A stretch of 35,822 nt of DNA, from UHGV virus genome UHGV-1355336; one strand, written 5' to 3'. Below the pieces are notes generated by a model. It was given only the letters and a program-made list of their open reading frames with translations. It searched no databases and was not told where the DNA came from. The DNA is from a virus. This document shows positions 1 to 35,822 of this stretch, in pieces; the stretch's first letter is position 1, and every line of letters starts with the position of its first letter. A program made the position numbers and the translations under genes.

Positions 1-2
1 GG

Positions 3-386: not shown

Positions 387-391
387 ATCCC

Positions 392-1704: not shown

Positions 1705-1722
1705 TGCAAAACATTTTATGTG

Positions 1723-1750
1723 AAACCGCCTGCGGGCGGTTTTGTCGTTT
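1723..1750 (+). terminator. Stem-loop between I and J (AAACCGCC-loop-GGCGGTTT then U-rich); possible attenuator or RNA structure
   Basis: Inverted repeat read directly in the 60-nt I-J spacer; U-tract is interrupted (TTGTCGTTT). Confidence 0.3.
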
Positions 1751-1764
1751 ATGGAGCGTGACGA

Positions 1765-5247: not shown

Positions 5248-5264
5248 ATTTTATAACCCAGAAC

Positions 5265-5290
5265 GGGCGTCAGAAATGACGCCTTTTTTA
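5265..5290 (+). terminator. Rho-independent terminator after J
   Basis: GGCGTCA-GAAA-TGACGCC hairpin followed by TTTTTT, 18 nt after the J stop. Confidence 0.6.
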
Positions 5291-5313
5291 TTGCAGAAAA
5301 GCGAGAGGTAATT

Positions 5314-5913
5314 ATGCGTAAACTTTATGCCGCCATTTTGTCCGCAGCCATTTGTCTGGCCGTATCCGGTGCGCCTGCATGGGCGTCTGAACATCAGTCC
5401 ACGCTGAGCGCGGGGTATCTTCATGCCCGGACGAACGTTCCCGGCAGTGATGATCTGAACGGGATTAACGTGAAATACCGTTATGAGTTTACGGACACAC
5501 TGGGGATGGTGACGTCGTTCAGCTATGCAGGAGACAAGAATCGCCAGATTACCCGTTACAGCGATACCCGCTGGCATGAAGATTCCGTTCGTAACCGCTG
5601 GTTCAGCGTAATGGCGGGGCCGTCTGTGCGCGTGAATGAATGGTTCAGCGCGTATGCGATGGCGGGTGTGGCTTACAGCCGTGTGTCGACTTTCTCCGGG
5701 GATTATCTCCGCGTAACTGACAACAAGGGGAAAAAGCACGATGTGCTGACCGGAAGTGATGACGGTCGCCACAGCAACACGTCTCTGGCGTGGGGAGCTG
5801 GCGTGCAGTTTAACCCGACCGAATCCGTGGCCATTGATGTCGCTTATGAAGGCTCCGGCAGTGGTGACTGGCGCACTGACGGGTTCATCGTGGGTGTTGG
5901 TTATAAATTCTGA
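5314..5913 (+). CDS. lom: Lom outer-membrane protein (Ail/Lom/OmpX family)
   Basis: 199 aa, signal peptide [24 protein letters not shown], beta-barrel pattern ending ...FIVGVGYKF; canonical position after J. Confidence 0.9.
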
Positions 5914-5939
5914 TTAGCCAGGTAACACAGTGTTATGAC

Positions 5940-5967
5940 AGCCCGCCGGTTCAGGCGGGCTTTTTTG
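5940..5967 (+). terminator. Rho-independent terminator after lom
   Basis: GCCCGCC-GGTTCA-GGCGGGC hairpin followed by TTTTTT. Confidence 0.65.
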
Positions 5968-5977
5968 TGGGGTGAAT

Positions 5978-8900: not shown

Positions 8901-9328
8901 ACACCCACAGCGCCAGCGCATCCAGTACGGATTTGGGGACGAAAACCACATCGTCGTTTGATTACGGCACTAAATCCACGAATAACACTGGTGCGCATAC
9001 CCATAGTGTTAGCGGTACGGCTGCTTCAGCCGGTGCACATACCCATTCGATGACATTTGTTTCAGGTGGTTCCAGTGGTGCTCCGGGAAGTGGATCACCT
9101 GATTATTCTAAATACAGTGTTAACACTTCTTCTGCAGGCGCTCATACGCACTCTGTATCGGGTACTGCTGCAAGCGCAGGTGCACACGCACATACTGTCG
9201 GTATTGGTGCTCATACGCACTCCGTTGCGATTGGTTCACATGGACATACCATCACCGTTAACGCTGCTGGTAACGCGGAAAACACCGTCAAAAACATCGC
9301 ATTTAACTATATTGTGAGGCTTGCATAA
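5978..9328 (+). CDS. stf: Side tail fibre protein (Stf/StfR-like) with Ala/Ser-rich repeat rod and His-rich C-terminal domain
   Basis: ATG at 5978 gives [27 protein letters not shown]... (lambda Stf-like N-terminus); ~330 aa of low-complexity A/S/T repeats with recurring KTSETNA units; C-terminus has repeated GAHTHS / HxH motifs. Confidence 0.85.
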
Positions 9329-9912
9329 TGGCATTCAGAATGAGTGAACAACCACGGACCATAAAAATTTATAATCTGCTGGCCGGAACTAATGAATTTA
9401 TTGGTGAAGGTGACGCATATATTCCGCCTCATACAGGTCTGCCAGCAAACAGTACCGATATTGCACCGCCAGATATTCCGGCAGGCTTCGTGGCTGTTTT
9501 CAACAGTGATGAGGCATCGTGGCATCTCGTTGAAGATCATCGGGGTAAAACGGTTTATGACGTGGCTTCCGGCGACGCGTTATTTATTTCTGAACTCGGT
9601 CCGTTACCGGAAAATGCCACTTGGTTATCCCCGGAAGGGGAGTTTCAGAAGTGGAACGGCACAGCCTGGGTGAAAGATGCAGAAGCAGAAAAACTATTCC
9701 GGATCCGGGAGGCGGAAGAAACAAAAAACAGCCTGATGCAGGCAGCGAATGAGCATATTGCGCCACTTCAGGATGCTGTAGATCTGGAAATCGCAACGGA
9801 GGAAGAAACCTTGTTGCTGGAAGCCTGGAAAAAGTATCGGGTGTTGCTGAACCGTGTTGATACATCAACTGCACCTGATATTGAGTGGCCTACGAACCCT
9901 GTCAGGGAGTAA
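9328..9912 (+). CDS. tfa: Tail fibre assembly chaperone Tfa
   Basis: 194 aa, start overlaps stf stop (TAATG); [54 protein letters not shown]... is typical Tfa. Confidence 0.85.
9751..9867 (+). repeat. Direct repeat copy 1 (3' part of tfa); copy 2 lies in the downstream tfa fragment
   Basis: [30 protein letters not shown] coding stretch recurs near-identically at ~10800-10913. Confidence 0.6.
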
Positions 9913-9966
9913 TCATTGGGATTATGCCGCAGCACGTCTTAAGCAAGAACGTGCTGCGGTTGGATG

Positions 9967-10635
9967 CTATTTTTTCCCTGAAGCGGAAAACATTACTACA
10001 GTACCTTGAACCTTGGTTTTAACATTCTCGAAATGCTCTGAGAGTATATGTGTTAAGCCTTCTTCGGAATCTTTTGTGTTTGAAAAGATACCTTTCTGAT
10101 TGTAAATGCGCATCAGTTTTTGACCGAAGCTATTGTGCACAACTCCATCGCCAAGAATTGTGGCTCCGTATAGAGTTCCATCGTCAGTTAAGGCCTGCGC
10201 CGCATTGCGTATTACACAGCTTTTTGTAGATATATTTCCAGGCAGGCAGTGAAGAAGGTAAAACATGGAAATGGAATCAAATTGACCATGTAACGCCGCG
10301 GGATAAGGTTCAAAAACATCATGGCTAATTTTATGTTTAATTTTTGATTCCCCAGCCCTTGTAGATGCCGCGTTCAGGCTAGCTTCGTTCAAATCCATTA
10401 AAGATATCAGACTACTCTCAGGTACGTGAGTAAGGTAAAAACCAGTTCCAACACCAATATCCAGATGGTTGTTACCTAAATGTTCCAGAAAGTGTGGAAG
10501 AAGGTGTTCCTTTGTAGGACATCCCCATGCAAGCCGATTTGATACTCCCAAAACCCACCAGTCATAAAGCTTTAGGGTAAGTGGTGTGTAAATTTTAGCC
10601 CCATCATCTGTGTTTTTTTTCATTAATTTCACCAT
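9967..10635 (-). CDS. Class I SAM-dependent methyltransferase (small-molecule/protein type); resembles K-12 DLP12 ybcY but apparently intact
   Basis: 222 aa with motif I LDIGVGTGFYL; sits between tfa and a tfa fragment, the recalled ybcY position. Confidence 0.6.
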   Translation of the reverse strand: MVKLMKKNTDDGAKIYTPLTLKLYDWWVLGVSNRLAWGCPTKEHLLPHFLEHLGNNHLDIGVGTGFYLTHVPESSLISLMDLNEASLNAASTRAGESKIKHKISHDVFEPYPAALHGQFDSISMFYLLHCLPGNISTKSCVIRNAAQALTDDGTLYGATILGDGVVHNSFGQKLMRIYNQKGIFSNTKDSEEGLTHILSEHFENVKTKVQGTVVMFSASGKK

Positions 10636-10691
10636 GTTATAGTTTTATTTGTGAATTAAATCAATTATGGCGATGAATTACAAGGGGTTAA

Positions 10692-10997
10692 ATGCTGCCG
10701 CAGCATAGCGATATTGAAATAGCCTGGTATGCTTCGATACAGCAGGAGCCGAATGGCTGGAAGACCGTCACCACACAGTTCTACATCCAGGAATTCAGTG
10801 AGTATATTGCGCCACTGCAGGATGCTGTAGATCTGGAAATCGCAACGGAGGAAGAAAGATCGTTGCTGGAGGCATGGAATAAATATCGGGTGTTGTTGAA
10901 TCGAGTTGATACATCAGTAGCTCTGGGTATGAAGCTGTTTGTAACTCATGTTACAGTAACAGCCATTACTATCTCGAGGGTGCAAAATGTATATTGA
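10692..10997 (+). pseudogene. Tail fibre assembly gene fragment (tfaX-like remnant)
   Basis: Only the C-terminal Tfa-homologous block ([39 protein letters not shown]) is present; N-terminal part unrelated; track start is a non-ATG codon. Confidence 0.6.
10800..10913 (+). repeat. Direct repeat copy 2 (tfa 3' homology)
   Basis: Near-identical to 9751-9867 at nucleotide level (tattgcgccacttcaggatgctgtagatctggaaatcgcaacggaggaagaaa). Confidence 0.6.
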
Positions 10998-11124
10998 TTT
11001 GATATTTTATAAATTTACTTCGAATCTGGCACGTCAACTTTTGATTAAAGTAATATCAGTTTTCGGCGAAAAAAGGACCGTGTACATGAGACGATTTCAT
11101 ACAAGAATAACAAAAATATGAATA

Positions 11125-11160
11125 TGCTCCCAATGCAATATATGTTTTGCATTGGGAGCA
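11125..11160. terminator. 14-bp perfect-stem hairpin 20 nt downstream of the hydrolase gene
   Basis: TGCTCCCAATGCAA-tatatgtt-TTGCATTGGGAGCA; AT-rich flanks on both sides. Confidence 0.45.
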
Positions 11161-11180
11161 AATAGCGGAATATTTTGAAA

Positions 11181-12665
11181 TTATTGTATTTCTGCTTCAG
11201 AATTTCCTGGGCAGTATATATTTTCTGGTTTTTGTGGAGTGATCAGGTGATGTACAACTGCTTTATCTACACATAAATTAACTCCGGTGAGAGCTAATGT
11301 ATGCCCATCACCATTTATTGTTAGTAACGGGCTGGAAAATTTCTCTGCCATCTTACGGGCATTAATCCAGGGCGTTGTTGGGTCGTATTTGTGTGCTACA
11401 AACAGTAAACCAGAGGGCAGAACAGTATTTTTCAGGCGAGTTTTGTTCAGGTCGCTATGTATTGGCCATAATTCACAAAAATCAGGTGAATCGGAACGTC
11501 CATTGTCAAAGTTAATAGCCGGGAAGGCATTCGCAAGAGCGTCTTTTCGGGATTTTCGCTCTTCTGGTGTTAATTGCTCATCCCCCTGATCTACACAGAG
11601 GATTACCCCCGAAGCATCGCTTGACTCTTCTGAGGCTATCGGAGCACTGAGCGCAGTTTCAATTTCATTACTGACAATCCCCTGAGAGAACTGGCGTATG
11701 GCAGTTGCAAGGGTTGGCCATGATGAACGCCATAGCAGAAGGTCTGTTGTTAATGATATGAGTTCATCTGAAGATATATTTTCTCCCTTACTGTCTAATA
11801 AAGGTTTGTGATGTAATTTTGATAATAGCTCATGGAACTGAGTTATTGCCTTATCTCTGTCTGAAGAAAGCGGGCAACTTTTTGTACGCGCACACCAGGA
11901 TGCAAAGCGATCAAACGTTTCCTGATAACTCTGTGCCTGTTTGAGTTGCCATGTGAAGTTGTCCTCCAGGTCATCGATATCGACGACTCCATCAAGAACG
12001 ATAGATCTTACGTTGTAGGGAAAACGTTCTGCATATAAGGCTGCAATTTGAGTTCCATACGAATACGCCACGGCTGTCAGTTGTTTATCCCCCAAGGCTT
12101 GCCTAATACGATCAATATCGTATACAGCCTCGTTAGAGCCGATATGGCGAATGACTTCGGCCCCGGTATTATGGATACAGGCATTAATTTTATTTAATAC
12201 TTGTTGCTTTTCGGTTATGTTTTCCTGAGTCTCTGTATCTGATTGCCGGCAGTTTATTGTCGGAGTGGACTGTCCGACGCCTCGAGGATCAAATCCAATA
12301 ATATCCCATGACTCACGAAGATTTGTGACTGGCCAGTCAAAGTTAATATAAGGATTTATGCCTGGTAACCCGGGACCACCACTTATTATCAGGATACTTC
12401 CTTTATGCTTGCTTTTTGCCGGCAATTTTGTCAACGCTAGTTTGACTTGTGATTTTTTTTCATAAGAAGCATCTCCGCCTGTGTCTGTATATTTTAATGG
12501 AACAGACAAATAACCACATAGTAAGTCAGGAGACGGTTTTTCCTCACCAAACCAGTGGTTGAATTGACTGGCCATACAGGATTGCCACTGTATCTGCTGG
12601 GCAGATACGGTTACTGGTAGAAGTAACGTTAAAACAACTTTGAAATGAGTAATTATTTTTCGCAT
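11181..12665 (-). CDS. Secreted alpha/beta-fold hydrolase (peptidase/esterase-like), function unknown
   Basis: 494 aa; N-terminal signal peptide MRKIITHFKVVLTLLLPVTVSAQ; nucleophile-elbow-like VAYSYGT; AT-rich cargo context. Confidence 0.6.
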   Translation of the reverse strand: MRKIITHFKVVLTLLLPVTVSAQQIQWQSCMASQFNHWFGEEKPSPDLLCGYLSVPLKYTDTGGDASYEKKSQVKLALTKLPAKSKHKGSILIISGGPGLPGINPYINFDWPVTNLRESWDIIGFDPRGVGQSTPTINCRQSDTETQENITEKQQVLNKINACIHNTGAEVIRHIGSNEAVYDIDRIRQALGDKQLTAVAYSYGTQIAALYAERFPYNVRSIVLDGVVDIDDLEDNFTWQLKQAQSYQETFDRFASWCARTKSCPLSSDRDKAITQFHELLSKLHHKPLLDSKGENISSDELISLTTDLLLWRSSWPTLATAIRQFSQGIVSNEIETALSAPIASEESSDASGVILCVDQGDEQLTPEERKSRKDALANAFPAINFDNGRSDSPDFCELWPIHSDLNKTRLKNTVLPSGLLFVAHKYDPTTPWINARKMAEKFSSPLLTINGDGHTLALTGVNLCVDKAVVHHLITPQKPENIYCPGNSEAEIQ

Positions 12666-12851
12666 TGTGTCTCTGAATATCGGAATAAAGATAAGATTTG
12701 AATATATTGAGGTCTTGTGTTGCGGTAAGAGATTACACGTTATGACATAGGTTAAATGCTTACAAAATTAGTGGATATTGCCTACTTGTAACTGTAAACA
12801 AATTCCCCGGGGTTATACAATACCACCGGGGAGAAAATCTGGTTAACTTCG

Positions 12852-13805
12852 TTAAAAGGTGTACTTAAGACCAGCAGTAGTGATGAAGTTATAGTTTTCT
12901 ATGCCTGCACCATTTTTGCTGTAGTCTGAAGTGTTATCATTGTGATCATAAAGTGAAGTATTACCTTTTTTATTCGTAACCCGATTCCATGCGCCTTCAA
13001 CATAAACCTTTGCGTTAGGTGTTACGTAATAACCTGCATTGACTGCAACAGAATAGTAATTTTGGTCTTTGACTTTACTGCGATAAGTGATTCTTTTTCC
13101 TGGGTCATAGTGCTCATCGTTATCAGATGCTTCCACCCAGCCGCTGTATTTAAATGTGCCACCTAGCTCAAAATCTTCATAACGATAACTTCCAGTCAAG
13201 CCAATGTAGGGCATTTTAAAACGTTGTTTGTAGCCGATTGCTCTTTCTCCATTCGGGAAGGAGCCGATATCATCTCTGAATCCCTCCTCAGAACTGTAGA
13301 TATAGGAACCACCTCTGGCTGTAAAGCTATAACGGCTTTCCTGATATCCGGCCATGAGTCCCAGGCGGTAATTGGGTTCGTTGAGGAGCCAGCCTTTGAT
13401 ATTCAGATCAAATTCGTTGGCATAATTGAGTTGTGTATCAGGGTGCCTACTTTCATCTGTCCAGGTTCCGGGGTTACTGGAATCCATCCAGTCCTGATCG
13501 ACCATATTGCCACCTCGGCTGTCGAGAGTAGTCCAGCCCGCAGCCCCAATAGATATCTGGGGCATCAAATCCCAATTAATTGCACCTTTAATAATTGCAG
13601 CGTTATTGAATTTCCAGTCGAGTTGACTGACTTTTCGGCCTCCTTCTTCAGCTAGATAAACGCGCTCTTTTGTTTTTCCGCTCAGAGTTCCAAGACTAAT
13701 GTCCGCATTTATGTTGTCAGGAGTAAACGATATAGTCTCGGTAGAAGCAAAAGAGCTGATCGCAATAGGGGTTGTCAGAACTATTCCCAGAAGTTTCGCC
13801 CGCAT
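12852..13805 (-). CDS. ompT: Outer membrane protease OmpT (omptin)
   Basis: 317 aa; matches recalled E. coli OmpT over its whole length apart from a few substitutions (signal peptide MRKLLGIVLTTPIAISSFA..., ends ...ITTAGLKYTF). Confidence 0.9.
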   Translation of the reverse strand: MRAKLLGIVLTTPIAISSFASTETISFTPDNINADISLGTLSGKTKERVYLAEEGGRKVSQLDWKFNNAAIIKGAINWDLMPQISIGAAGWTTLDSRGGNMVDQDWMDSSNPGTWTDESRHPDTQLNYANEFDLNIKGWLLNEPNYRLGLMAGYQESRYSFTARGGSYIYSSEEGFRDDIGSFPNGERAIGYKQRFKMPYIGLTGSYRYEDFELGGTFKYSGWVEASDNDEHYDPGKRITYRSKVKDQNYYSVAVNAGYYVTPNAKVYVEGAWNRVTNKKGNTSLYDHNDNTSDYSKNGAGIENYNFITTAGLKYTF

Positions 13806-14227
13806 AAAAGTTCTCCATTCAATCGTTTTAATGATTGAATATGTATTTTTTATATCTAACTTAATGAGTCAATCACATATTGCTCCACTGTTTATATTTT
13901 GTTTAGTATTGAATGATTATCACAATGCGCTATCTGTTTTTGGTTTAATTATCTGTTATTATTTTATGTTGCGGTTTTACTGTGTGGTTTTTTATGCTTT
14001 TGTGGTGTTTTTATCTATTTAAGCGCCATGCCTTTAAAGGCATATAAGCGAAAATAGCATGAGGTTTATCCTCAATTGCTATGTTTTTTAGTACAAAAAA
14101 GAGGGACAAAACTGAGACACATAAGGCCTCACAATGGCTTGCAAGGCTTTACATGTTTTGAGGTAGTGGGACGTGTGAGCGCAGAGATGGCGCGGTAATT
14201 TGTTGACTTAAAATGTCGTTCTAGGAA

Positions 14228-14272
14228 CTTCTAAGTCGTGGGCCGCAGGTTCGAATCCTGCAGGGCGCGCCA
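14228..14272 (+). other. Phage attachment core: 3' terminal 45 nt of tRNA-Arg(UCU) (argU type); not a complete tRNA gene
   Basis: CTTCTAAGTCGTGGGCCGCAGGTTCGAATCCTGCAGGGCGCGCCA matches the recalled argU anticodon loop to CCA end; 5' half of the tRNA absent; integrase stop lies 16 nt downstream. Confidence 0.75.
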
Positions 14273-14287
14273 TTACAATTCAATCAG

Positions 14288-15451
14288 TTACGCCTTCTTT
14301 ATATCCTCCATAATTCCACAGTGGGACATATTTGGGACATTATCACCAAAAATGTCGTCTATTTTCCTTGCATGCTCTGTCAAATGATTAGGCGCAAGGT
14401 GAGCATACCTACGAACCATTTCTATGGACTCCCATCCGCCCATTTCCTGAAGCACAGATAATGGGACGCCTGACTGGATCAGCCAGCTTGCCCAGGTGTG
14501 TCTGAGGTCATGGAAACGGAAATCTTCAATTCCTGCACGACGACAAGCTGATAGCCATGATGTCTTGCTGTCGATGCGCATCTTCCTGACCGCAGGCGTT
14601 GATGTTCCATCTGCTCGCTTAGCCGCCTTGGTATGTACAAACACCCATTTGTGATGCTTGCCTATTTGATCACGCAACACTTTACAGGCGGTATCGTTCA
14701 GCGCCACACCAATGGCGCGGTTTGATTTGCTCTCTTCTGGATTCACCCAGGCAACTCGTCGCTGCATGTCGATTTGTTGCCATTCCAGATTTATGATGTT
14801 CGACTTTCTCAGACCAGTTGCCAGCGCAAACTTGACGACAGATTTCAGTGGTTCGGGGCACTCATCAATAAGGCGTTTTGCTTCCTCCTTTTCCAGCCAT
14901 CTGACTCGCTTGTTTCTGACCGCTGGTATCTTGATGACAGGCGCTTTTTCCAGCCACTTCCAGTCGCGTTCTGCAGCACGGAGAATGGCCTTTATCATGG
15001 CAAGATGCTTTGCCTTTGTCTGAGTTGATACTGGCTTTGGTTCATAAACAGGCGGTTCTTTACCTTTCCTGATGGCGGCCTGAACTTTCTGTTTCCATAT
15101 TTCTTTCGTCTTTCTGTTATGCATTCTGCTTACAGCAGAGTAAATCTTTGCCTCCGAGATATCTTTAAGCCTTATACCCTCAAAATGTTCAAGCCAGAAC
15201 TCAATCCGGCTTTTATCTGAATCGAGAGATTTTTTATCAGCTTTTTCCTCAAGCCATCTTAGGCAGGCCTCTTCAAAAGTGACATCAGGTAAATCCCCTA
15301 GCTTTTCTACTCGCCAGAGTTCTGCTTTTCGCTTGTCGTGCAACTCCTGAGCTTGCCGCTTGTCCTTTGTGCCAAGAGATTCCTTAATTCGTTTCCCGCC
15401 CGGGAGCGAATACGAGGCATACCATATTTCATTTCTGCGGAAGAGTGACAT
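14288..15451 (-). CDS. int: Tyrosine integrase (IntD/DLP12-like, P4-integrase family)
   Basis: 387 aa; [35 protein letters not shown]...; C-terminal catalytic R..HDLRHT..Y region; adjacent to tRNA-derived att core. Confidence 0.9.
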
Positions 15452-21703: not shown

Positions 21704-22444
21704 TTAAAGTCGATTATATTTAATCGACTCATGAATCAGTGCCTTACCCATAACATAAAGCTGATCTTGCGACTTCTCATCAATGTACCATTTCTCATAG
21801 GCGGGGTTATCCGAAAGAACAGCTAGTTTGTTGCCTTGCATTTGTAGACGTTTAACATGGAAAGTCTTACCGTAAACGAAAGAGTAAACTCCATCAGTCT
21901 GGAAGTGGCGAACGGAAATGTCGACAAACAATCGATCCCCGGAAACAAGAGTTGGGGACATACTATCTCCATTTACCGTCATAACTTTTATATCATTCTG
22001 AGAACGGTTTCCGAAAAGAGAACGGGCATGTTCAGTTGTGAACTCAATGGCGTAGAGCACATCAACATAGTCTGAAAGCATATAGGTCCCAGGTCCTGCG
22101 CTAACGCTAAGATCCAAAACTTCTATCCTGTATACATCGGGCTTTGTTGGATTGGGGATGCTTGCCATTTCCTTACATTCCTCTCTATCTCCAACACCAT
22201 ATTCTAGATATGAAGCTGATACTCCAAGAGCCAACGCAAGTTTACTCATGACAGAGACACGTGGCTTCGCTGCGCCGATTGTGTATCGACGAGCCATTTC
22301 ATATGTAACGCCCACAAGACTTTTGAGTTGAGTGACAGAGATTCCTTTGATTGTCATCAATTCGTTTAGTCTCTTGGCGAAATCTGGATACTTCTGTTCT
22401 TCTACCATAGGTAGAAGATTACTCACATCACACGCGCTAGTCAT
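21704..22444 (-). CDS. CI-like prophage repressor (HTH plus S24 LexA-type autopeptidase domain); start codon uncertain (22444 or 22408)
   Basis: C-terminal VNGDSMSPTL...K motif pattern of S24 peptidases; N-terminal HTH; divergent to a cro-like gene; no SD before candidate ATGs. Confidence 0.75.
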   Translation of the reverse strand: MTSACDVSNLLPMVEEQKYPDFAKRLNELMTIKGISVTQLKSLVGVTYEMARRYTIGAAKPRVSVMSKLALALGVSASYLEYGVGDREECKEMASIPNPTKPDVYRIEVLDLSVSAGPGTYMLSDYVDVLYAIEFTTEHARSLFGNRSQNDIKVMTVNGDSMSPTLVSGDRLFVDISVRHFQTDGVYSFVYGKTFHVKRLQMQGNKLAVLSDNPAYEKWYIDEKSQDQLYVMGKALIHESIKYNRL

Positions 22445-22446
22445 TT

Positions 22447-22484
22447 CTATTTTAAGTAGTTGCAATTTGCTATTTTAAGTAGCA
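22447..22484. promoter_or_regulatory. Right operator region: two copies of CTATTTTAAGTAG spaced 23 bp; second sits in 17-mer TGCTATTTTAAGTAGCA
   Basis: Direct reading of the cI-cro intergenic region; 17-mer matches the OL candidate at 14 of 17 positions. Confidence 0.5.
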
Positions 22485-22514
22485 TCATCCCTCTGAATTT
22501 CAGAGGAGAAAGGT

Positions 22515-22778
22515 ATGTCATCTCAAAACTACACAGAGAAAGCAGTAAAGGCTGCGGGAAAGTCTTTATCTGAAGTAGCCCGTCGCTTTGGTTTTAAGTC
22601 CACTCAATCCGTCGCCAATTGGGTAATTAACAATCAAGTCCCGTCAGAACGGGTTTTACAACTTTGTGAGTTGGGAAACTGGTCCGTGACCCCTCATGAA
22701 CTGCGTCCTGATATTTACCCCAATCCAAATGATGGATTACCTGAGTGCTATTCAAAAGTTAGCGGTTCAACTGCGTAA
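22515..22778 (+). CDS. Cro-like / YdaS-family HTH regulator
   Basis: 87 aa, SD GAGGAG upstream; HTH (LSEVARRFGFKSTQSVANWV) and C-terminal ...HELRPDIYPNPN typical of YdaS-type proteins. Confidence 0.65.
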   Translation: MSSQNYTEKAVKAAGKSLSEVARRFGFKSTQSVANWVINNQVPSERVLQLCELGNWSVTPHELRPDIYPNPNDGLPECYSKVSGSTA

Positions 22779-22806
22779 ACGTAACCACAGAAACGAGGAA
22801 TGAACC

Positions 22807-23391
22807 GTGGGTAAAGAACCTGAATGGAAAGTTGATAAGCAACCAGCATGGCTGGTGGCAGCAATACGAAGAACGATTGCTGATTTACCTCATGGCTATG
22901 AGGAAGCAGCGGAAATTCTTGGTTTGTATAAATCTGATGATATCACCCCAGCGAAAGATCAATTGCATAACAGACTGCGTAGCGGTGGGGATCAAATTTT
23001 TCCACTTGAGTGGGCCATGGTTTTACAGGATGCCAGTGGTACCAGGCATGTAACGGATGCGATAGCGCGTCGTAGTAATGGGGTGTTTGTGCCGCTGGTG
23101 AACATTGATGACATTGACAATGGTGACATTAATCAGCGGCTGATGGAGTCAATAGAATGGATTGGCAAGCATTCCCAGTACTTACGCAAGGCAACTGCTG
23201 ATGGAGTTATTGACCAGGCTGAGCGTGAGCAAATCGAAGAGAACAGCTACCAAGTAATGGCGAAGTGGCAGGAGCATTTAACACTGTTATTTCGTGTTTT
23301 TTGTGCGCCGGAAAAGAGTAACGCCCGCGAGTGTGCAGCTCCGGGCGTCGTGGCGTCGATTGCTTCTGGTTGTGGAGAAACTAACGCATGA
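22807..23391 (+). CDS. Early regulatory protein (YdaT/CII-like), function uncertain
   Basis: 194 aa, GTG start with AGGA upstream; position directly after the cro-like gene. Confidence 0.45.
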
Positions 23392-23726
23392 ACAGTTTAA
23401 CAACACACTACCGTCGCTCGCAACTGATTGCGCTTCCTGTACCGGGTGGAAAAGCGAAGGTGGAGTATTGCTATGCGGTGAATGTACCAGGTGACAGGGA
23501 AATTGTAACCCACAGCTTTGCAGAGTGGGCTGTGGGTGATTTCAACCGGCAGAAGGAGACAGTCCTTTGCAACAAGTTAACCGCTGGTTCAAAGATCACT
23601 ACGGAGTGCCCGTCAGAGTCATTCGTTGGGAACCGGAAACACAACGGGTTATCTACCTCCGCGAAGGCTATGAGCATGAATGCTTCAGCCCGCTCGAACA
23701 GTTTCGTCGTAAATTCAGGGAAATAG
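23388..23726 (+). CDS. Hypothetical protein; 3' half may be out of frame (see findings)
   Basis: N-terminal 60 aa protein-like; C-terminal part low-complexity, while an overlapping frame encodes a better-looking 59-aa sequence ending at ~23749. Confidence 0.3.
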
Positions 23727-23735
23727 AGGTCGGTC

Positions 23736-24683
23736 ATGAGCACTAAATTAACCGGCTATGTATGGGATGGTTGCGCTGCGTCAGGCATGAAGTTATCCAG
23801 CGTGGCAATTATGGCCCGCCTGGCTGATTTCAGTAATGACGAAGGTGTGTGCTGGCCATCAATTGAAACCATTGCCCGCCAGATTGGCGCGGGGATGAGC
23901 ACCGTCAGAACGGCTATCGCACGGCTGGAAGCAGAAGGCTGGTTAACGCGTAAGGCGCGTCGCCAGGGTAACCGCAATGCGTCGAATGTTTATCAGCTTA
24001 ACGTTGCGAAGCTTCAGGCAGCGGCATTTTCTCAACTGTCAGATTCTGACCCGTCAAAATCTGACGCATCAAAATCTGACCAGTCAAAATTTGATGCGTC
24101 GAAATCTGGCAAAAAAGCGGGTTTTCACCCGTCAGAATCTGGCGGGGATCCGTCAGTAAAATCAAAACATGATCCGTCAGATAAAAAAACTTCTCGTCCG
24201 GACGCTTCGCAACCGGACACGCAGACGGCTGAACAGGAGTTTTTAACTCGCCATCCTGATGCGGTTGTATTCAGCCCTAAAAAGCGCCAGTGGGGAACGC
24301 AGGATGATTTGACCTGCGCACAGTGGCTCTGGAAAAAAATCATCGCCCTGTACGAGCAGGCCGCCGAATGTGACGGCGAGGTGGTTCGTCCCAAAGAACC
24401 GAACTGGACAGCATGGGCAAACGAAATTCGCCTGATGTGTGTGCAGGATGGTCGTACTCACAAACAAATCTGCGAGATGTACAGCCGCGTCAGCCGCGAT
24501 CCGTTCTGGTGCCGTAACGTGCTCAGCCCGTCGAAGCTGCGGGAAAAATGGGATGAGCTTTCCCTGCGCTTATCGCCGTCCGTCAGCACGTACACCGAAA
24601 AACGCGAAGACCCGTACTTCAAAGCCAGTTACGACAACGTGGACTACAGCCAGATCCCGGCAGGATTCAGGGGGGGATCATGA
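23736..24683 (+). CDS. Replication initiator (lambda O-like) with internal origin iterons
   Basis: 315 aa; N-terminal winged-helix-like region; central DPSKSDASKSDQSKFDASKSG encoded by tandem 15-bp repeats; position after cro/cII-type genes. Confidence 0.65.
   Translation: MSTKLTGYVWDGCAASGMKLSSVAIMARLADFSNDEGVCWPSIETIARQIGAGMSTVRTAIARLEAEGWLTRKARRQGNRNASNVYQLNVAKLQAAAFSQLSDSDPSKSDASKSDQSKFDASKSGKKAGFHPSESGGDPSVKSKHDPSDKKTSRPDASQPDTQTAEQEFLTRHPDAVVFSPKKRQWGTQDDLTCAQWLWKKIIALYEQAAECDGEVVRPKEPNWTAWANEIRLMCVQDGRTHKQICEMYSRVSRDPFWCRNVLSPSKLREKWDELSLRLSPSVSTYTEKREDPYFKASYDNVDYSQIPAGFRGGS
24039..24188. repeat. Iteron array (candidate ori): ~5 tandem 15-bp units of consensus CCGTCAAAATCTGAC plus 3 spaced copies and an A-rich tract
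   Basis: Repeats read directly: ccgtcaaaatctgac / gcatcaaaatctgac / cagtcaaaatttgat / gcgtcgaaatctggc / ccgtcagaatctggc ... followed by gataaaaaaac. Confidence 0.65.
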
Positions 24684-25168
24684 GTCTTTTGAATGACGTT
24701 CAGAAATTCATTGAAGCCCATCCGGGGTGTACTTCCGGAGACATTGCGGATGCTTTTGCAGGTTACTCACGACAGCGCGTTCTGCAGTCAGCAAGCAAGT
24801 TACGTCAGAGTGGGCGTGTGGCTCACCGTTGTGAAGGGGATACACGCAGACATTTCCCGCGGCTGACTGAGATACCGCAGGAGCCGGAACCGCAACCAGT
24901 TCGTGAATCCAGACCTGTGCGCAATTTCTATGTCGGCACTAACGATCCCCGGGTGATTTTGTGCCTGACCCGCCAAGCGGAAGAACTGGAGTCCAGGGGC
25001 TTATACCGTCGTGCTGCAACGGTGTGGATGGCGGCATTCCGTGAAAGCCACTCCCAGCAAGAGCGAAACAATTTTCTTGCGCGTCGTGAGCGGTGTTTAC
25101 GGAAAAGCAGCAAGCGCGCTGTATCGGGTGAAGAGTGGTATCTGTCAGGGAATTACGTGGGGGCTTAA
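24680..25168 (+). CDS. Hypothetical nin-region protein
   Basis: 162 aa, start overlaps the O-like stop (ATGA). Confidence 0.45.
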   Translation: MSLLNDVQKFIEAHPGCTSGDIADAFAGYSRQRVLQSASKLRQSGRVAHRCEGDTRRHFPRLTEIPQEPEPQPVRESRPVRNFYVGTNDPRVILCLTRQAEELESRGLYRRAATVWMAAFRESHSQQERNNFLARRERCLRKSSKRAVSGEEWYLSGNYVGA

Positions 25169-25494
25169 TGACGACGTTAACTCAATGCCAGCAGCAGGTG
25201 CTGGATATGCTGATTTCTTACCAGAAAGAACGTGGCTTCCCGCCAACCAATCAGGAGGTGGCTACCATGCTGGGATACCGTTCAGTGAATGCAGCGGTGG
25301 AGCATCTTCGCGCACTGGAGAAAAAAGGCGTCATCACGATAAAGCGTGGCGTGGCCCGGGGCATCACGCTTCATACCGCGGTGAAGGACGACGACAGCGA
25401 GGTGGCCGGGATTATCCGCGCACTGCTTGCTGGTGAGGAAAACGCCAGGCTGCGTGCAGCCCACTGGTTACATGAGAGGGGGCTGAAAGTATGA
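25168..25494 (+). CDS. LexA N-terminal DNA-binding-domain homologue lacking the peptidase domain
   Basis: MTTLTQCQQQVLDMLISYQKERGFPPTNQEVATMLGYRSVNAAVEHLRALEKKGVI parallels LexA [56 protein letters not shown]; only ~109 aa. Confidence 0.6.
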   Translation: MTTLTQCQQQVLDMLISYQKERGFPPTNQEVATMLGYRSVNAAVEHLRALEKKGVITIKRGVARGITLHTAVKDDDSEVAGIIRALLAGEENARLRAAHWLHERGLKV

Positions 25495-32933: not shown

Positions 32934-33467
32934 ATGAACGCAAAAATCAGATACGGCCTGTCGGCTGCCGTTCTGGCACTGATTGCCGTCGGTGCGCCTG
33001 CGCCTGATATTCTCGACCAGTTTCTGGATGAAAAAGAAGGTAACCACACAACGGCATACCGCGATGGTTCCGGCATCTGGACCATCTGTCGGGGTGCCAC
33101 GGTGGTGGATGGAAAACCCGTTGTTCCCGGTATGAAACTGTCGAAGGAAAAATGCGACCAGGTTAACGCCATTGAACGGGATAAGGCGCTGGCATGGGTG
33201 GAGCGCAATATTAAAGTGCCACTGACCGAACCACAGAAAGCGGGTATCGCGTCATTTTGTCCCTATAACATTGGCCCCGGTAAGTGTTTCCCGTCGACGT
33301 TTTATAAGCGGCTGAATGCCGGTGATCGTAAAGGTGCATGCGAGGCGATTCGCTGGTGGATAAAAGATGGTGGGCGCGATTGCCGCATACGTTCAAATAA
33401 CTGCTATGGACAGGTTATTCGTCGTGACCAGGAAAGCGCATTAGCCTGTTGGGGGATAGATCAGTGA
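32934..33467 (+). CDS. R: SAR endolysin (phage 21 R-type lysozyme)
   Basis: N-terminal SAR segment [16 protein letters not shown]; catalytic region [20 protein letters not shown] of T4-lysozyme-like enzymes. Confidence 0.9.
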
Positions 33468-33925
33468 GCAGAGTCGCCGCGATTATTTATGCTCTGGTTA
33501 TCTGCATCATCGTCTGCCTGTCATGGGCTGTTAATCATTACCGTGATAACGCAATCGCCTACAAAGCCCTGCGCGACAAAAATGCCAGAGAACTGAAGCT
33601 GGCGAACGCGGCAATTACTGACATGCAGATGCGTCAGCGTGATGTTGCTGCGCTCGATGCAAAATACACGAAGGAGTTAGCTGATGCGAAAGCTGAAAAT
33701 GATGCTCTGCGTGATGATGTTGCCGCTGGTCGTCGTCGGTTGCACATCAAAGCAGTCTGTCAGTCAGTGCGTGAAGCCACCACCGCCTCCGGCGTGGATA
33801 ATGCAGCCTCCCCCCGACTGGCAGACACCGCTGAACGGGATTATTTCACCCTCAGAGAGAGGCTGATCACTATGCAAAAACAACTGGAAGGAACCCAGAA
33901 GTATATTAATGAGCAGTGCAGATAG
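33464..33925 (+). CDS. Rz: Spanin inner-membrane subunit Rz
   Basis: GTG start overlapping the endolysin stop (GTGA); N-terminal [22 protein letters not shown]; coiled-coil periplasmic part; contains an embedded Rz1. Confidence 0.85.
33684..33866 (+). CDS. Rz1: Spanin outer-membrane lipoprotein Rz1 (embedded in Rz, +1 frame)
   Basis: Lipobox LVVVGC, proline-rich mature part ([18 protein letters not shown]); fully inside Rz. Confidence 0.8.
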
Positions 33926-33956: not shown

Positions 33957-34250
33957 TTATTTTGAGCAATACACCCGCGCTTCCAGCGGAGTATAAATGC
34001 CAAAAGTGATGAAACCGAGCAATCCATTTACGAATGTTTGCTGGGTTTCTGTTTTAACCACATTTTCTGCACCACCACAAATTTTTGCTGCATCGACAGT
34101 TTTCTTCTGCCCAATTCCCGAAACGAAGAAATGATGGGTGATGGTTTCCTTTGGTGTTACTGCTGTCGGTTTGTTTCCAACAGTAAACGTCTGTTGAGCA
34201 CATCCTGTAATAAGCATTGCCAGAGCGGCAGAAAACAACATTTTTTTCAT
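33957..34250 (-). CDS. bor: Bor lipoprotein (serum-resistance-associated)
   Basis: MKKMLFSAALAMLITGCAQQTFTVGNKPTAVTPKETITHHFFVSGIGQKKTVDAAKICGGAENVVKTETQQTFVNGLLGFITFGIYTPLEARVYCSK matches recalled lambda Bor (97 aa). Confidence 0.85.
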   Translation of the reverse strand: MKKMLFSAALAMLITGCAQQTFTVGNKPTAVTPKETITHHFFVSGIGQKKTVDAAKICGGAENVVKTETQQTFVNGLLGFITFGIYTPLEARVYCSK

Positions 34251-34730
34251 CTTATTATCCTGCATTGTTAAAAACGGCAGAATCCTATGTGACAACAATT
34301 AAACGATAGTTAAATGGATTGATGAAAATTAAAACTACACAGGTGAGCTCAGACGATTGGAGGGAGTTGGGGACACTCAGAATCCTGTAGAATGAAATAA
34401 ACCGGTCTATCCGTCCATTACCCTTTTAGCTGCGCTGTATCGTCGCCGTATTCCCGCATTAACCATGACCGTAGCCCGACGGGGAATTCCTTCTGCGTGA
34501 GTGTGCGGGAATAATTAAAAACGATGCACACCGGGTTTTTACCGCGTTAATGATTCGCGGATTTATCCCGGTGCGATGGTGGAAGAAACCGGAAGCTGTA
34601 TTACAGAAAGTGCTACTACTGTATCCCGATGCGATGTATGTAATGTGAGTCAGATAATGGCACAGGATGTGGTGATGTGGCAGTCTGGAACACAGGATAT
34701 ATTGTCAGAATAAGACCCGTAGGAATAAAA

Positions 34731-35057
34731 ATGAAAAGACGCCTTTTACTACTTTTTCTGTTATCTGTCCTAGCAGTGGGATGCTCGCAGCAAAAAGCTG
34801 ATGAGCCCCGGCAATTAGTGACGGTGTATCCACGATATCCGGAATATGCTGCAGCAAATTATATCAAGGGGCTGGTTGAGGTTAAGTTCGATATTGGTGC
34901 TGATGGGACTGTGACACGGATCGTTTTTCTCCGCTCAGAGCCTCATAATTTGTTTCGTGATGAAGTGGTGAAGGCCATGGCGAAATGGCGATTTGAAAAG
35001 AATCGTCCCTGTCAGGGAGTGAAGAGACAATTTATCTTTACGCCGTCACGTCCCTGA
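34731..35057 (+). CDS. Lipoprotein with TonB C-terminal-like domain
   Basis: Signal peptide plus lipobox MKRRLLLLFLLSVLAVGC; YPRYPEYAAANYIKGLVEVKFDIGADGTVTRIVFLRSEPHNLFRDEVVKAMAKWRF fits the TonB_C pattern; SD AGGAA upstream. Confidence 0.55.
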   Translation: MKRRLLLLFLLSVLAVGCSQQKADEPRQLVTVYPRYPEYAAANYIKGLVEVKFDIGADGTVTRIVFLRSEPHNLFRDEVVKAMAKWRFEKNRPCQGVKRQFIFTPSRP

Positions 35058-35179
35058 TGCTTCCAGGTAGAGAGGGGCTGGAAGCAGGAGAAAAATGAAA
35101 GAGCCAGCGGTTATATTTTTGTCATGGCTGACGAGGAATGATGGAAGAAGGCGTTGTATGCCACACAACGCCTCACTGT

Positions 35180-35533
35180 TCATTTCTTCTTTTTCTCTAG
35201 TGGAACCCGATGAATAAGAGTTGCACTGGTTTCCGATGAGATGGCGATATACTCGGGCAAAGTATGCTGGCAGTTTTCCAACTGGTCAAAAATACCTGCT
35301 CTCGTCTGTTGCAATGCCTGCAGCATGCGGCGGCAATGCGCCTTGCTTTTGCTAACCATCTTTCCTTCCTCTATCAGTCGCTGCGTGAACTCATCATGGA
35401 ATACCAGGTAAATGCGGATGTTATCGGTTTTGGCTACGCAGCATAGTACAAAACGGACAGGTGCATCCCGGGACGGGGGAGGCGTCACATGTCCCTGTGA
35501 TGGTTGTTCCGGGTAATGCACTGTGTGGGGCAT
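35180..35533 (-). CDS. Hypothetical protein (start uncertain)
   Basis: Open frame only; overlaps the neighbouring - strand ORF; no recognisable motif. Confidence 0.25.
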   Translation of the reverse strand: MPHTVHYPEQPSQGHVTPPPSRDAPVRFVLCCVAKTDNIRIYLVFHDEFTQRLIEEGKMVSKSKAHCRRMLQALQQTRAGIFDQLENCQHTLPEYIAISSETSATLIHRVPLEKKKK

Positions 35534-35672
35534 AAAAATGTCCGATAATTTTACTTTCTACCGCAGTTAGTTGATTCGTTGGTCCTGGTAGCACATTGGG
35601 CGAGGATTTAAATGCCAGGCAACTGAAGGATGATGTTGCAAGGGAGATAGCGAGAATATTTCTGATTTTCAT
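35421..35672 (-). CDS. Small secreted hypothetical protein
   Basis: Start at MKIRNILAISLATSSFSCLA (signal-peptide-like); ~83 aa. Confidence 0.3.
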   Translation of the reverse strand: MKIRNILAISLATSSFSCLAFKSSPNVLPGPTNQLTAVESKIIGHFYAPHSALPGTTITGTCDASPVPGCTCPFCTMLRSQNR

Positions 35673-35822
35673 TTGATGATGCCTCTGTGTGAAATGACGG
35701 TAAACGACGCACTTGTGCCGGCACATAATAGCAAGCACCATAATAGATCAGATTCGATTCTTGCTGTAAGTGATAATTATTCTCGTTTTTCGGGTCCTTT
35801 CCGGCGATCCAACAGGCTACGG

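What the first reader, a model, noticed from the sequence alone, without database searches (positions are those of the whole stretch)
34731..35057. Prophage lipoprotein with TonB C-terminal-like domain next to bor
This is a predicted lipoprotein whose mature part fits the TonB C-terminal domain pattern. From a prophage moron slot, such a protein could compete with TonB at outer-membrane receptors and block TonB-dependent phage or colicin entry. This is a hypothesis only.
Basis: inference. Interest (0 to 1): 0.5.

Follow-up and report, generated by a model that had tools for sequence, protein, structure and literature searches.

The report
Prophage outer-membrane lipoprotein with TonB domain
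A lambdoid prophage gene found in about 30% of complete E. coli genomes encodes a small lipoprotein that is a lipid-anchored copy of the receptor-binding end of TonB without its motor-coupled part; it probably traps TonB boxes and dampens TonB-dependent import, but its function has never been tested.

Summary
Window 34731-35057 (+) is a real 108-aa gene. It has a signal peptide with a lipobox (LAVG|C18, Ser at +2) and then a complete TonB C-terminal domain (Pfam TonB_C, E 7e-13). It aligns without gaps to E. coli TonB 151-230, and the AF2 model lies 0.9-1.2 Å from solved TonB domains.

It sits 480 bp from bor/iss, between the lysis cassette and cos. It is under strong purifying selection (dN/dS about 0.1) and occurs in 1617 of 5426 complete E. 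coli genomes and in phage 21. Records call it "TonB family protein", "TonB fragment" or, wrongly, "Rz-like spanin". I found no functional study.

New here:
- It is not a fragment of host tonB. It belongs to a family of roughly 105-130-aa lipoproteins in Enterobacterales.
- Most chromosomal members carry strong Fur boxes (14-17 of 19, against 12 of 19 at genuine tonB promoters).
- Phage-borne members in Escherichia, Klebsiella, Rahnella and Serratia all occupy the slot between lysis genes and terminase.
- The window allele has lost the Fur-like palindrome.

The most likely mechanism is an outer-membrane-tethered, motor-less TonB domain that captures TonB boxes. This is inferred, not shown (confidence about 0.4).

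The parts
34731..35057 (+). Gene for a 108-aa lipoprotein with a TonB C-terminal domain (identical to RefSeq WP_000830178.1 and phage 21 CPT_21_73).
   Evidence: ORF and sequence. Annotation. Pfam and NCBIfam TonB_C. dN/dS 0.10-0.18.
34731..34784 (+). Signal peptide with lipobox LAVG|C. The Cys18 codon is 34782-34784. Ser at +2 predicts Lol sorting to the outer membrane.
   Evidence: PROSITE-type lipobox rule met. Cys is invariant in 31 of 31 family members and +2 is never Asp. Outer-membrane sorting is inferred from the +2 rule.
34806..35039 (+). TonB C-terminal domain (residues 26-103, equivalent to E. coli TonB 153-230). An 8-13-residue tether precedes it, and only 5 residues (TPSRP) follow the last strand.
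   Evidence: Gapless alignment to 1u07 and 2grx. AF2 pLDDT above 95 over the domain, with strands 47-55, 61-70 and 94-103 and helices 38-42 and 76-83. Foldseek rmsd 0.9-1.2 Å to TonB C-terminal domains, including receptor-bound ones.
34721..34724 (+). Shine-Dalgarno AGGA, 6 nt before the ATG.
   Evidence: Read directly from the sequence. Phage 21 annotates a ribosome-binding site at the same place.
34703..34711 (+). Candidate extended -10 promoter element, TGTCAGAAT (TGTTAGAAT in the 70% alleles). It lies in a motif, ATTGT[CT]AGAATAAGAC, that is conserved among alleles. This is an inference only.
   Evidence: Alignment A1 and motif scan. The generic sigma-70 scan found no canonical promoter on the + strand.
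34431..34600 (+). Upstream non-coding block that is better conserved between alleles than the coding sequence. It includes a 25-nt island (34568-34592) that is also identical in a related phage lacking the gene. Its function is unknown.
   Evidence: No Rfam match. Folding z-score -1.4, not significant.
35059..35085 (+). Inverted repeat GCTTCCAG-N11-CTGGAAGC immediately after the stop codon. No U-tract follows, so it is not a canonical intrinsic terminator.
   Evidence: Read from the sequence. The terminator scan did not list it.
33957..34250 (-). bor/iss lipoprotein gene, a divergent neighbour. It is context rather than an obligatory partner.
   Evidence: Pfam Lambda_Bor, E 1e-30. RefSeq calls it 'Iss'. 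bor is present in about 46 of the 80 viral loci that carry the TonB-domain gene.
32934..33925 (+). Lysis cassette directly upstream (lysozyme 32934-33467, Rz 33464-33925, embedded Rz1 33684-33866), on the same strand as the gene.
   Evidence: The gene follows a lysis cassette and precedes the terminase wherever the fetched flanks reach them in 80 IMG/VR loci. The same holds in Klebsiella, Rahnella and Serratia prophages.

Best explanation
The gene encodes a small lipoprotein. [quoted passage not shown] A short tether of roughly 8-13 residues would hold a complete TonB C-terminal domain against the periplasmic face of that membrane. The protein has no transmembrane anchor, no proline-rich spacer and no route to ExbB/ExbD, so it cannot transduce energy.

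The most likely activity is the one the fold is built for. It would capture TonB-box strands by beta-augmentation along its last strand. The strands could belong to TonB-dependent transporters (FhuA, FepA, CirA, BtuB and others) or to incoming group B colicins. The protein would then act as a local, motor-less competitor of TonB.

The expected phenotype is reduced sensitivity to TonB-dependent phages, colicins and microcins, at some cost in siderophore or B12 uptake. The phage gene comes from a family of enterobacterial lipoproteins whose chromosomal members are predicted Fur-regulon genes. The allele in this window has lost the Fur-like operator. It is probably expressed from the late transcript, and possibly also from a weak extended -10 promoter.

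Shown: gene, lipobox, fold, family, selection, distribution, position, Fur boxes in homologues.
Inferred: outer-membrane location, TonB-box binding, dominant-negative effect, time of expression.
For: - The domain is TonB_C and aligns without gaps to TonB 151-230.
- The AF2 model (pLDDT 87) superposes at 1.0 Å on TonB in the BtuB complex (2gsk_B) and at 0.9 Å on TonB in the FhuA complex (2grx_C).
- The aromatic and core residues of TonB are kept: Y163, F180, F202, W213 and F230 are identical and Y215 is replaced by Phe (alignment).
- Only five residues, two of them prolines, follow the last strand. The model has no fourth strand after it that could cover that edge.
- The lipobox Cys is invariant and +2 is never Asp in 30 family members scored.
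- dN/dS is 0.10-0.18, and the gene is in 1617 of 5426 E. coli genomes, so it is a maintained function.
- The link to the iron/TonB regulon: 14 of the 20 non-E. coli family loci scanned (17 chromosomal, 3 prophage-borne) have Fur-box matches of at least 14 of 19 within about 80 nt of the start. Background is 0.7% of 230-nt windows, and genuine tonB promoters score 12 of 19.
[quoted passage not shown] 2001, as summarised in PMC9841981). [quoted passage not shown]
- Functional analogues exist. T5 Llp is a lipoprotein in the inner leaflet of the outer membrane that binds FhuA (abstract).
Against: - No binding partner was tested or predicted, because complex prediction was not possible with these tools.
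- TonB residues implicated in TonB-box and receptor contacts are not conserved. Q160 is Tyr here and Leu in the other allele. R166 is Tyr, nearly invariant in the family.
- Fur-induced expression of the chromosomal homologues fits a helper of iron uptake at least as well as an inhibitor.
- All six sequenced phages with this allele also carry the iron/manganese importer sitABCD. That could mean 'compensation for a decoy' or 'a pro-iron-uptake cargo set'.
- No canonical sigma-70 promoter was found upstream. The gene is co-oriented with the late operon at every phage locus examined, so it may not be made in lysogens.
- There is no PADLOC hit and no literature.
Confidence: 0.4

Rival explanations
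1. It is a positive accessory of iron acquisition. The outer-membrane-anchored TonB domain would recruit periplasmic binding proteins or substrates to the transporter exit, or bind an iron-bearing substrate directly as the TonB homologue FusB binds ferredoxin. The prophage would carry it as part of a pro-iron cargo.
For: - Most chromosomal homologues have strong Fur boxes overlapping their promoters. This is typical of uptake functions.
- All six sequenced phages with this allele also carry sitABCD.
- FusB C-terminal domains (7zc8, 9hi3, the latter in complex with ferredoxin) are among the closest structural matches.
Against: - The protein has no energy coupling.
- The only experimentally known effect of a free periplasmic TonB domain is inhibition.
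- The sit co-occurrence is confounded by relatedness. About 15 sit-bearing relatives lack the gene, and phages with the 72% allele lack sit.
- The window allele has lost the Fur-like site.
Confidence: 0.2
2. It is an envelope or virulence lipoprotein unrelated to TonB boxes. Examples are binding to peptidoglycan or other outer-membrane proteins, or a contribution to serum resistance alongside Bor/Iss.
For: It lies next to bor/iss. Both are small lipoproteins in the same accessory region. TonB_C occurs in many non-TonB architectures, for example multi-repeat proteins among the hits and AgmX/PglI.
Against: bor is absent from about a third of the loci carrying the gene and from the Klebsiella, Rahnella and Serratia prophages. 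The Fur boxes of homologues point to iron rather than serum. Similarity to bona fide TonB domains is high.
Confidence: 0.15
3. It is a lysis accessory or spanin-like protein, as the PHROG label 'Rz-like spanin' implies. It would act late at the outer membrane during host lysis.
For: PHROG 1267 matches at E 5e-43 and carries the label 'Rz-like spanin'. The gene always lies directly after the lysis cassette, on the late strand, in five phage lineages from four genera.
Against: - These phages already have a complete Rz/Rz1 pair.
- The protein is a globular TonB_C fold, not a short proline-rich o-spanin.
- Most family members are chromosomal and stand alone, away from any lysis genes.
- The label is probably annotation transfer from position plus the lipobox.
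Confidence: 0.07
4. It is a non-functional remnant of a captured tonB 3' end, as names such as 'partial tonB-like' and 'TonB fragment' imply.
For: These names appear in several records.
Against: - dN/dS is about 0.1 with saturated dS.
- The length is fixed at 108 aa and the signal peptide and lipobox are intact in alleles 67-98% identical.
- The protein scores higher against the lipoprotein family (80-99 bits) than against true TonB C-terminal domains (55-60 bits).
- It is present in 30% of genomes.
Confidence: 0.03

Closest known systems
TonB (E. coli P02929), C-terminal domain residues about 150-239
   Same: Same Pfam domain. Gapless alignment at 38-42% identity. Predicted fold within about 1 Å of the free and receptor-bound domains. 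The conserved YP motif, the aromatic cluster and the beta-3 strand that pairs with TonB boxes are all kept.
   Different: - There is no N-terminal transmembrane anchor and no proline-rich spacer, so no ExbB/ExbD coupling.
- A cleavable lipoprotein signal replaces them.
- The protein ends 5 residues after beta-3.
- Q160 and R166 are replaced.
- NCBIfam TonB equivalog scores are 45-69 bits against cutoffs of 265-448.
Recombinant periplasmic TonB C-terminal fragments (Howard et al. 2001; from memory also Koedding et al. 2004, TonB-86 to TonB-126)
   Same: A motor-less TonB C-terminal domain placed in the periplasm. Overexpression inhibits TonB-dependent iron import (PMC9841981). From memory, and not checked here, such fragments also protect against phi80. 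The mature phage protein spans the equivalent of TonB about 145-235, which covers the binding-competent fragments.
   Different: The phage protein is natural, lipid-anchored at the outer membrane, diverged (about 40% identity) and under selection. Its inhibitory activity is untested.
Cor (phi80, N15, HK022) and Llp (T5) superinfection-exclusion lipoproteins
   Same: Small phage-encoded lipoproteins. Llp sits in the inner leaflet of the outer membrane and binds FhuA (abstract of 10.64898/2026.03.26.714494). From memory, Llp binds the periplasmic side of FhuA. The expected phenotype, exclusion of FhuA-dependent phages, would be similar.
   Different: There is no sequence relationship: the TonB-domain protein has no Cor PHROG hit. 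The fold is different, and the proposed target is the generic TonB box, so it would be broad rather than FhuA-specific.
Uncharacterised enterobacterial 'TonB family protein' lipoproteins (e.g. P0037, P0040, P0089, P0176, P0182, P0193)
   Same: True family membership at 31-46% identity. Same length class (104-133 aa). Invariant lipobox Cys. Shared signature YP.YA..N, S.P.HLFD and KWRFE..KP.
   Different: Most are chromosomal stand-alone genes with strong Fur boxes. The window allele is phage-borne, lies in the late region and lacks the Fur box.
Bor / Iss
   Same: A neighbouring small lipoprotein encoded in the same accessory region between Rz and cos.
   Different: It is an unrelated family on the opposite strand, and it is not always present together with the gene.

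Membership tests
TonB_C domain (Pfam PF03544 / TIGR01352) | HMM score above the curated cutoff | tested here: met
   PF03544 scores 49.2 bits against a cutoff of 24.6. TIGR01352 scores 47.4 against 27.1.
TonB_C domain (Pfam PF03544 / TIGR01352) | [quoted passage not shown] | tested here: met
   The AF2 model has pLDDT 87. Foldseek top 12 PDB hits are all TonB or FusB C-terminal domains, with rmsd 0.9-1.7 Å for the first ten.
TonB energy transducer proper | N-terminal transmembrane anchor that couples to ExbB/ExbD, a proline-rich periplasmic spacer, and full-length equivalog score | tested here: not met
   The N-terminus is a cleavable lipoprotein signal and the whole protein is 108 aa. NCBIfam TonB equivalogs score 45-69 bits against cutoffs of 265-448 and match only profile positions of about 150-240.
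Bacterial lipoprotein (signal peptidase II substrate) | Lipobox with an invariant Cys after a positively charged n-region and a hydrophobic h-region | tested here: met
   The PROSITE-type rule is met by the window protein and by 29 of 31 family members. Cys is invariant. No experimental lipidation data exist.
Outer-membrane (Lol-sorted) lipoprotein | No Asp at +2 (Lol avoidance signal absent) | tested here: met
   +2 is Ser here. Across 30 members it is S 18, A 6, T 5 and V 1. Actual localisation cannot be tested with these tools.
TonB-box binder / dominant-negative TonB fragment | Physical binding to TonB boxes of transporters or colicins, and inhibition of TonB-dependent import | not testable with these tools
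   Only fold similarity to receptor-bound TonB and an experimental precedent for fragments.
Cor / Llp superinfection-exclusion lipoproteins | Sequence membership in the Cor or Llp families | tested here: not met
   PHROGs gives no Cor hit for this protein. Its hits are phrog_1267 and phrog_34172. There is no PADLOC hit.
Rz1-type o-spanin (the label of PHROG 1267) | A short, proline-rich outer-membrane lipoprotein, embedded in or paired with an Rz i-spanin, and the only o-spanin of the cassette | tested here: not met
   A separate Rz/Rz1 pair is present at 33464-33925 and 33684-33866. The protein is a globular TonB_C domain. Family members occur far from lysis genes.
Fur regulon | A Fur box overlapping the promoter | tested here: not met
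   The window allele has a best match of 11 of 19, which is background level. The 70% alleles score 13 of 19. Of the 20 other family loci scanned, 14 score 14-17 of 19, against 0.7% of background windows. Genuine tonB promoters score 12 of 19.
Moron (independent accessory transcription unit in a prophage) | Present or absent between otherwise collinear phages, with its own promoter and terminator | tested here: inconclusive
   Presence or absence is shown: Lambda_2E9 has about 0.4 kb where the window has about 1.2 kb (34540-35765). There is no canonical promoter or terminator. There is only a candidate extended -10 and a hairpin without a U-tract.

The most novel reading that the evidence does not exclude
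Enterobacterales possess a previously unrecognised class of outer-membrane-tethered 'TonB-box traps'. These are small, Fur-induced lipoproteins made of a motor-less TonB C-terminal domain. They would intercept the TonB boxes of incoming group B colicins, microcin carriers and phage-exploited transporters when iron starvation makes the receptors abundant. Temperate phages of at least four genera have repeatedly captured this gene into the slot between lysis genes and terminase. The common E. coli allele has lost the Fur operator. Lysogens, or infected cells, would then gain broad tolerance to TonB-dependent killers.
Probability: 0.3. Interest if true: 0.75.

Novelty: new variant of a known kind. 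Interest (0 to 1): 0.55.

Why it matters
If the protein is a TonB-box trap, a gene present in about 30% of complete E. coli genomes, including ST131 and O157 lineages, would modulate several things at once. These are sensitivity to TonB-dependent phages and colicins, siderophore and B12 uptake, and possibly uptake of siderophore-conjugated antibiotics. That bears on phage therapy, bacteriocin ecology and the physiology of lysogens.

It would also be a natural, evolved version of the laboratory dominant-negative TonB fragments. Its mode of action (generic TonB-box capture) would differ from the receptor-specific Cor and Llp proteins.

Independently of the mechanism, two things can be tested directly. 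One is the predicted Fur regulation of the chromosomal homologues in Klebsiella, Raoultella, Serratia, Erwinia and Pantoea. The other is the mislabelling of the family as 'Rz-like spanin' or 'TonB fragment', which is worth correcting.

Tried and rejected
- Single-sequence AF2 gave an unusable model (pLDDT 51). It was replaced by a run with a 31-sequence alignment.
- The generic promoter and terminator scan found nothing convincing on the + strand.
- The conserved upstream block has no Rfam match and no significant folding (z -1.4). I did not pursue an RNA element.
- The search for related loci with the broad alignment failed because it had no conserved 7-10-mer. I reran it with a narrower alignment.
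- I tried to infer the receptor of phages carrying the gene from the C-terminus of J. Phage 21 J is only 57% identical to lambda J and 56% to h434 J, so no receptor can be assigned.
- sitABCD co-carriage looked striking: 6 of 6 sequenced phages with this allele. It is confounded by relatedness and is not general.
- PADLOC gave no hit.
- Ten literature searches found no functional study of a phage or prophage TonB-domain lipoprotein.
- The key precedent paper (Howard et al. 2001, PMC99666) is not held. I cite it only through PMC9841981.
- I rejected the 'pseudogene/fragment' and 'spanin' readings for the reasons given under the rival explanations.
I therefore could not check which strand residues 28-30 pair with, or the geometry of the lipid tether relative to a bound receptor.

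Full report
**Observation**

Window 34731-35057 (+) is an intact ORF of 108 codons. It starts with ATG and ends with TGA, and AGGA lies 6 nt upstream. RefSeq annotates exactly this interval in identical E. coli chromosomes as WP_000830178.1 'TonB family protein'. The curated phage 21 genome calls it 'TonB C-terminal domain protein'.

The N-terminus is MKRR, a hydrophobic core, then LAVG|C18. It satisfies the PROSITE-type lipobox rule. Residues 26-103 are a TonB C-terminal domain by four measures:
- Pfam PF03544, E 7.3e-13, twice the gathering score.
- TIGR01352, E 1.8e-12.
- A gapless phmmer alignment to E. coli TonB 151-230 in 1u07, 2gsk and 2grx.
- An AF2 model built on 31 family sequences, with pLDDT 87 overall and above 95 in the domain. 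Its best PDB matches are TonB C-terminal domains at 0.9-1.2 Å rmsd, including TonB bound to BtuB and to FhuA.

The neighbour at 33957-34250 (-) is bor/iss. Lysozyme, Rz and Rz1 lie just upstream. The window ends at the position of the phage 21 cos end.

**Is it a real, maintained gene?**

Yes. The gene alone is found in 1617 of 5426 complete E. coli genomes, with up to four copies per genome. It falls into two allele classes, at least 95% identity (1225 genomes) and 60-80% identity (392 genomes).

All alleles keep the 108-aa length, the signal peptide and the lipobox. Between the classes the synonymous sites are saturated (dS 1.5-2.2), while dN/dS is 0.10-0.12. Within the divergent class dN/dS is 0.18. 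Names such as 'partial tonB-like' or 'TonB fragment' are therefore misleading.

**What family is it?**

An exhaustive HMMER search of 1.8 billion representatives found a set of 104-133-aa proteins that align over the whole length, signal peptide included. They are 31-46% identical and score 80-99 bits. Genuine enterobacterial TonB C-terminal domains score only 55-60 bits.

A profile search brought in further members from Pantoea, Erwinia, Rahnella and a genome labelled Salmonella. All are annotated only as 'TonB family protein'. In a 31-sequence alignment the lipobox Cys is invariant. The family signature (YP.YA..N, S.P.HLFD, KWRFE..KP) differs from TonB proper. The +2 residue is never Asp. 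By the established Lol-avoidance rule this predicts an outer-membrane location, but that is an inference.

So the phage protein is a member of an enterobacterial lipoprotein family. It is not a recently captured piece of host tonB.

**Genomic context**

In 80 IMG/VR loci examined, the gene lies on the late strand, after the lysis cassette and before the terminase wherever the fetched flanks reach them. bor is present in about 46 of them.

The divergent E. coli alleles sit in the same slot in a different packaging module (DUF3950, HNH, Terminase_2) without bor. The same slot is used by:
- a 41%-identical homologue in Klebsiella phage ST13-OXA48phi12.4;
- a 32%-identical one in a Rahnella prophage;
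- one in a Serratia prophage.

Relative to a close relative that lacks the gene (Lambda_2E9), the window has about 1.2 kb (34540-35765) in place of about 0.4 kb. This is moron-like presence or absence.

Most other family members are chromosomal, stand-alone genes in unrelated neighbourhoods. Examples are lacZ and DUF1440 in Klebsiella and Raoultella, and minC and dsbB in Serratia. Pantoea members lie among metabolic genes.

**Regulation: the most informative new result**

I inspected the promoters of the homologues and then scored them against the 19-bp Fur consensus. Of the 20 non-E. coli family loci scanned (17 chromosomal, 3 prophage-borne), 14 have a match of 14-17 of 19 within about 80 nt of the start codon. 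Background is 0.7% of 230-nt windows at 14 or more and none at 16 or more. Some loci are orthologous, but at least nine distinct site sequences from five genera are involved. The matches often overlap an extended -10 element such as TGATAATAT.

As a calibration, the conserved site in genuine tonB promoters scores only 12 of 19. From my own knowledge, tonB is Fur-regulated in E. coli.

The family is therefore predicted to belong to the iron-starvation regulon. This ties it functionally to TonB-dependent transport rather than to lysis or serum resistance.

The phage copies mostly have decayed sites:
- The 70% E. coli alleles keep a 13 of 19 palindrome (AATAAGACTTATTCTTATC) overlapping TGTTAGAAT.
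- The Klebsiella and Rahnella phage copies score 12 and 11.
- The window allele has a 13-nt deletion that removes the right half of the palindrome, and scores 11 of 19.
- The Serratia prophage copy keeps a 16 of 19 site.

No canonical sigma-70 promoter or intrinsic terminator flanks the window gene. A conserved motif, ATTGT[CT]AGAATAAGAC, containing an extended -10-like TGTCAGAAT lies 20 nt upstream of the start. The gene will certainly be read by the Q-antiterminated late transcript. Expression in the lysogen is unproven.

**Mechanism**

What is shown is an outer-membrane-type lipoprotein carrying a complete TonB C-terminal domain. The domain follows a tether of roughly 8-13 residues and ends 5 residues (TPSRP) after the strand equivalent to TonB beta-3. 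The protein has no transmembrane anchor and no spacer, so it cannot couple to ExbB/ExbD.

Established structural work shows that TonB boxes bind by beta-augmentation to beta-3 of this domain (PMC11658791). Overexpressed periplasmic TonB domain inhibits TonB-dependent iron import in vivo (Howard et al. 2001, cited in PMC9841981). From memory, and not checked here, Koedding et al. 2004 reported that C-terminal fragments of 86 residues or more bind FhuA and protect against phi80.

The best-supported reading is therefore a motor-less competitor tethered at the outer membrane. It would capture TonB boxes of transporters, of incoming group B colicins, or both. I give it about 0.4.

Several points count against it or leave it open:
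- The partner is untested.
- TonB Q160 and R166 are replaced.
- Fur induction of the chromosomal homologues would be odd for a pure inhibitor, unless its role is protection when receptors are abundant.
- Lysogenic expression is unknown.

A variant is that the protein traps TonB itself by heterodimerisation of the C-terminal domains.

**Rivals**

- A helper role in iron uptake (0.2). It is supported by the Fur boxes, by co-carriage of sitABCD in all six sequenced phages with this allele and by the FusB precedent. It is weakened by the lack of any energy coupling and by the phylogenetic confounding of the sit association.
- A generic envelope or virulence role with Bor/Iss (0.15).
- A lysis accessory, as the PHROG 1267 label 'Rz-like spanin' suggests (0.07). 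The positional conservation supports it. It is contradicted by the complete Rz/Rz1 pair, the globular fold and the chromosomal homologues.
- A dead fragment (0.03), refuted by the selection analysis.

**Comparison with known systems and novelty**

The protein is a member of the TonB_C domain family and of an uncharacterised lipoprotein subfamily. It is not a TonB energy transducer, because the defining N-terminal features were tested and are absent. It is not a Cor or Llp homologue and not an o-spanin.

It would work like the laboratory dominant-negative TonB fragments. Its phenotype would resemble that of Cor and Llp, but through a generic target.

Ten full-text searches found no study of such a protein. 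The gene itself is already annotated. What is new is the family assignment, the Fur-box association, the recurrent capture into one prophage slot and the explicit mechanism.

I rate it a new variant of a known kind, with interest 0.55. It is common, cheap to test, and relevant to phage and colicin susceptibility and to iron uptake in lysogens.

Noticed in passing
L005-L012, L014, L017, L045, L047, L134, L137 (20-80 nt upstream of the family gene in each): Homologues of the lipoprotein in Klebsiella, Raoultella, Serratia, Erwinia and Pantoea, mostly chromosomal, carry Fur-box matches of 14-17 of 19. These often overlap an extended -10. Genuine tonB promoters in L018-L040 score only 12 of 19. 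This predicts an uncharacterised Fur-regulon lipoprotein family.
   Followed up: yes
L003:2450-2468 and L004:1503-1521, compared with window 34703-34725: The 70% E. coli prophage alleles keep a palindrome, AGAATAAG-A-CTTATTCT (13 of 19 to the Fur box), overlapping TGTTAGAAT. The window allele has a 13-nt deletion that removes its right half.
   Followed up: partly
window 34431-34600 (25-nt island at 34568-34592): The non-coding block upstream of the gene is more conserved between alleles than the synonymous sites of the coding sequence. CGGTGCGATGGTGGAAGAAACCGGA is also identical in a relative that lacks the gene (L051). There is no Rfam hit and no significant fold. A short minus-strand ORF (34418-34531) is annotated in some phages.
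   Followed up: partly
L050:8968-12417 (phage 21, record 21967-25416): Phage 21 and all five other sequenced phages with the same allele carry the sitABCD iron/manganese importer as cargo. About 15 sit-bearing relatives lack the TonB-domain gene, and phages with the 72% allele lack sit. The link is suggestive but confounded by relatedness.
   Followed up: partly
window 35180-35533 (-) and 35264-35446 (+): Annotations conflict on opposite strands. PHROG 4843 (E 1e-44) matches the last 59 residues of the minus-strand ORF. RefSeq (WP_000881608.1) and phage 21 (CPT_21_75) annotate the overlapping plus-strand 60-aa ORF. In the divergent-allele phages a minus-strand DUF3950 gene sits at the corresponding place.
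   Followed up: no
PHROG phrog_1267 (match to window 34731-35054): The PHROG family that contains this protein is labelled 'Rz-like spanin', category lysis. The members are TonB_C lipoproteins. The label looks like a transfer from position and lipobox.
   Followed up: yes
window 1-15451: The window spans two prophage segments around an omptin gene. First come the tail genes (J-like 1765-5247, side tail fibre 5972-9328). Then come a methyltransferase (9967-10635, -), an alpha/beta hydrolase (11181-12665, -) and omptin (12852-13805, -). Last is the integrase (14288-15451, -) of the prophage that carries the finding.
   Followed up: partly
L007:6749-7312, L009:6738-7301 and L132:232-858: A DUF1440 (YagU-like) membrane protein gene lies next to the chromosomal homologue in Klebsiella and Raoultella. 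One also lies a few kb upstream of the homologue in Klebsiella phage ST13-OXA48phi12.4. This may be coincidence, or a trace of how the gene moved.
   Followed up: no
window 33957-34250 (-): RefSeq names the Bor homologue here 'increased serum survival lipoprotein Iss'. The TonB-domain gene therefore travels with a chromosomal prophage iss allele in many strains.
   Followed up: no
window 35012 (Cys94 codon): The window allele has a second Cys (RPCQG) in the loop before the last strand. Other alleles have Arg there (RPRKG), so it is not a conserved disulfide or functional residue.
   Followed up: yes
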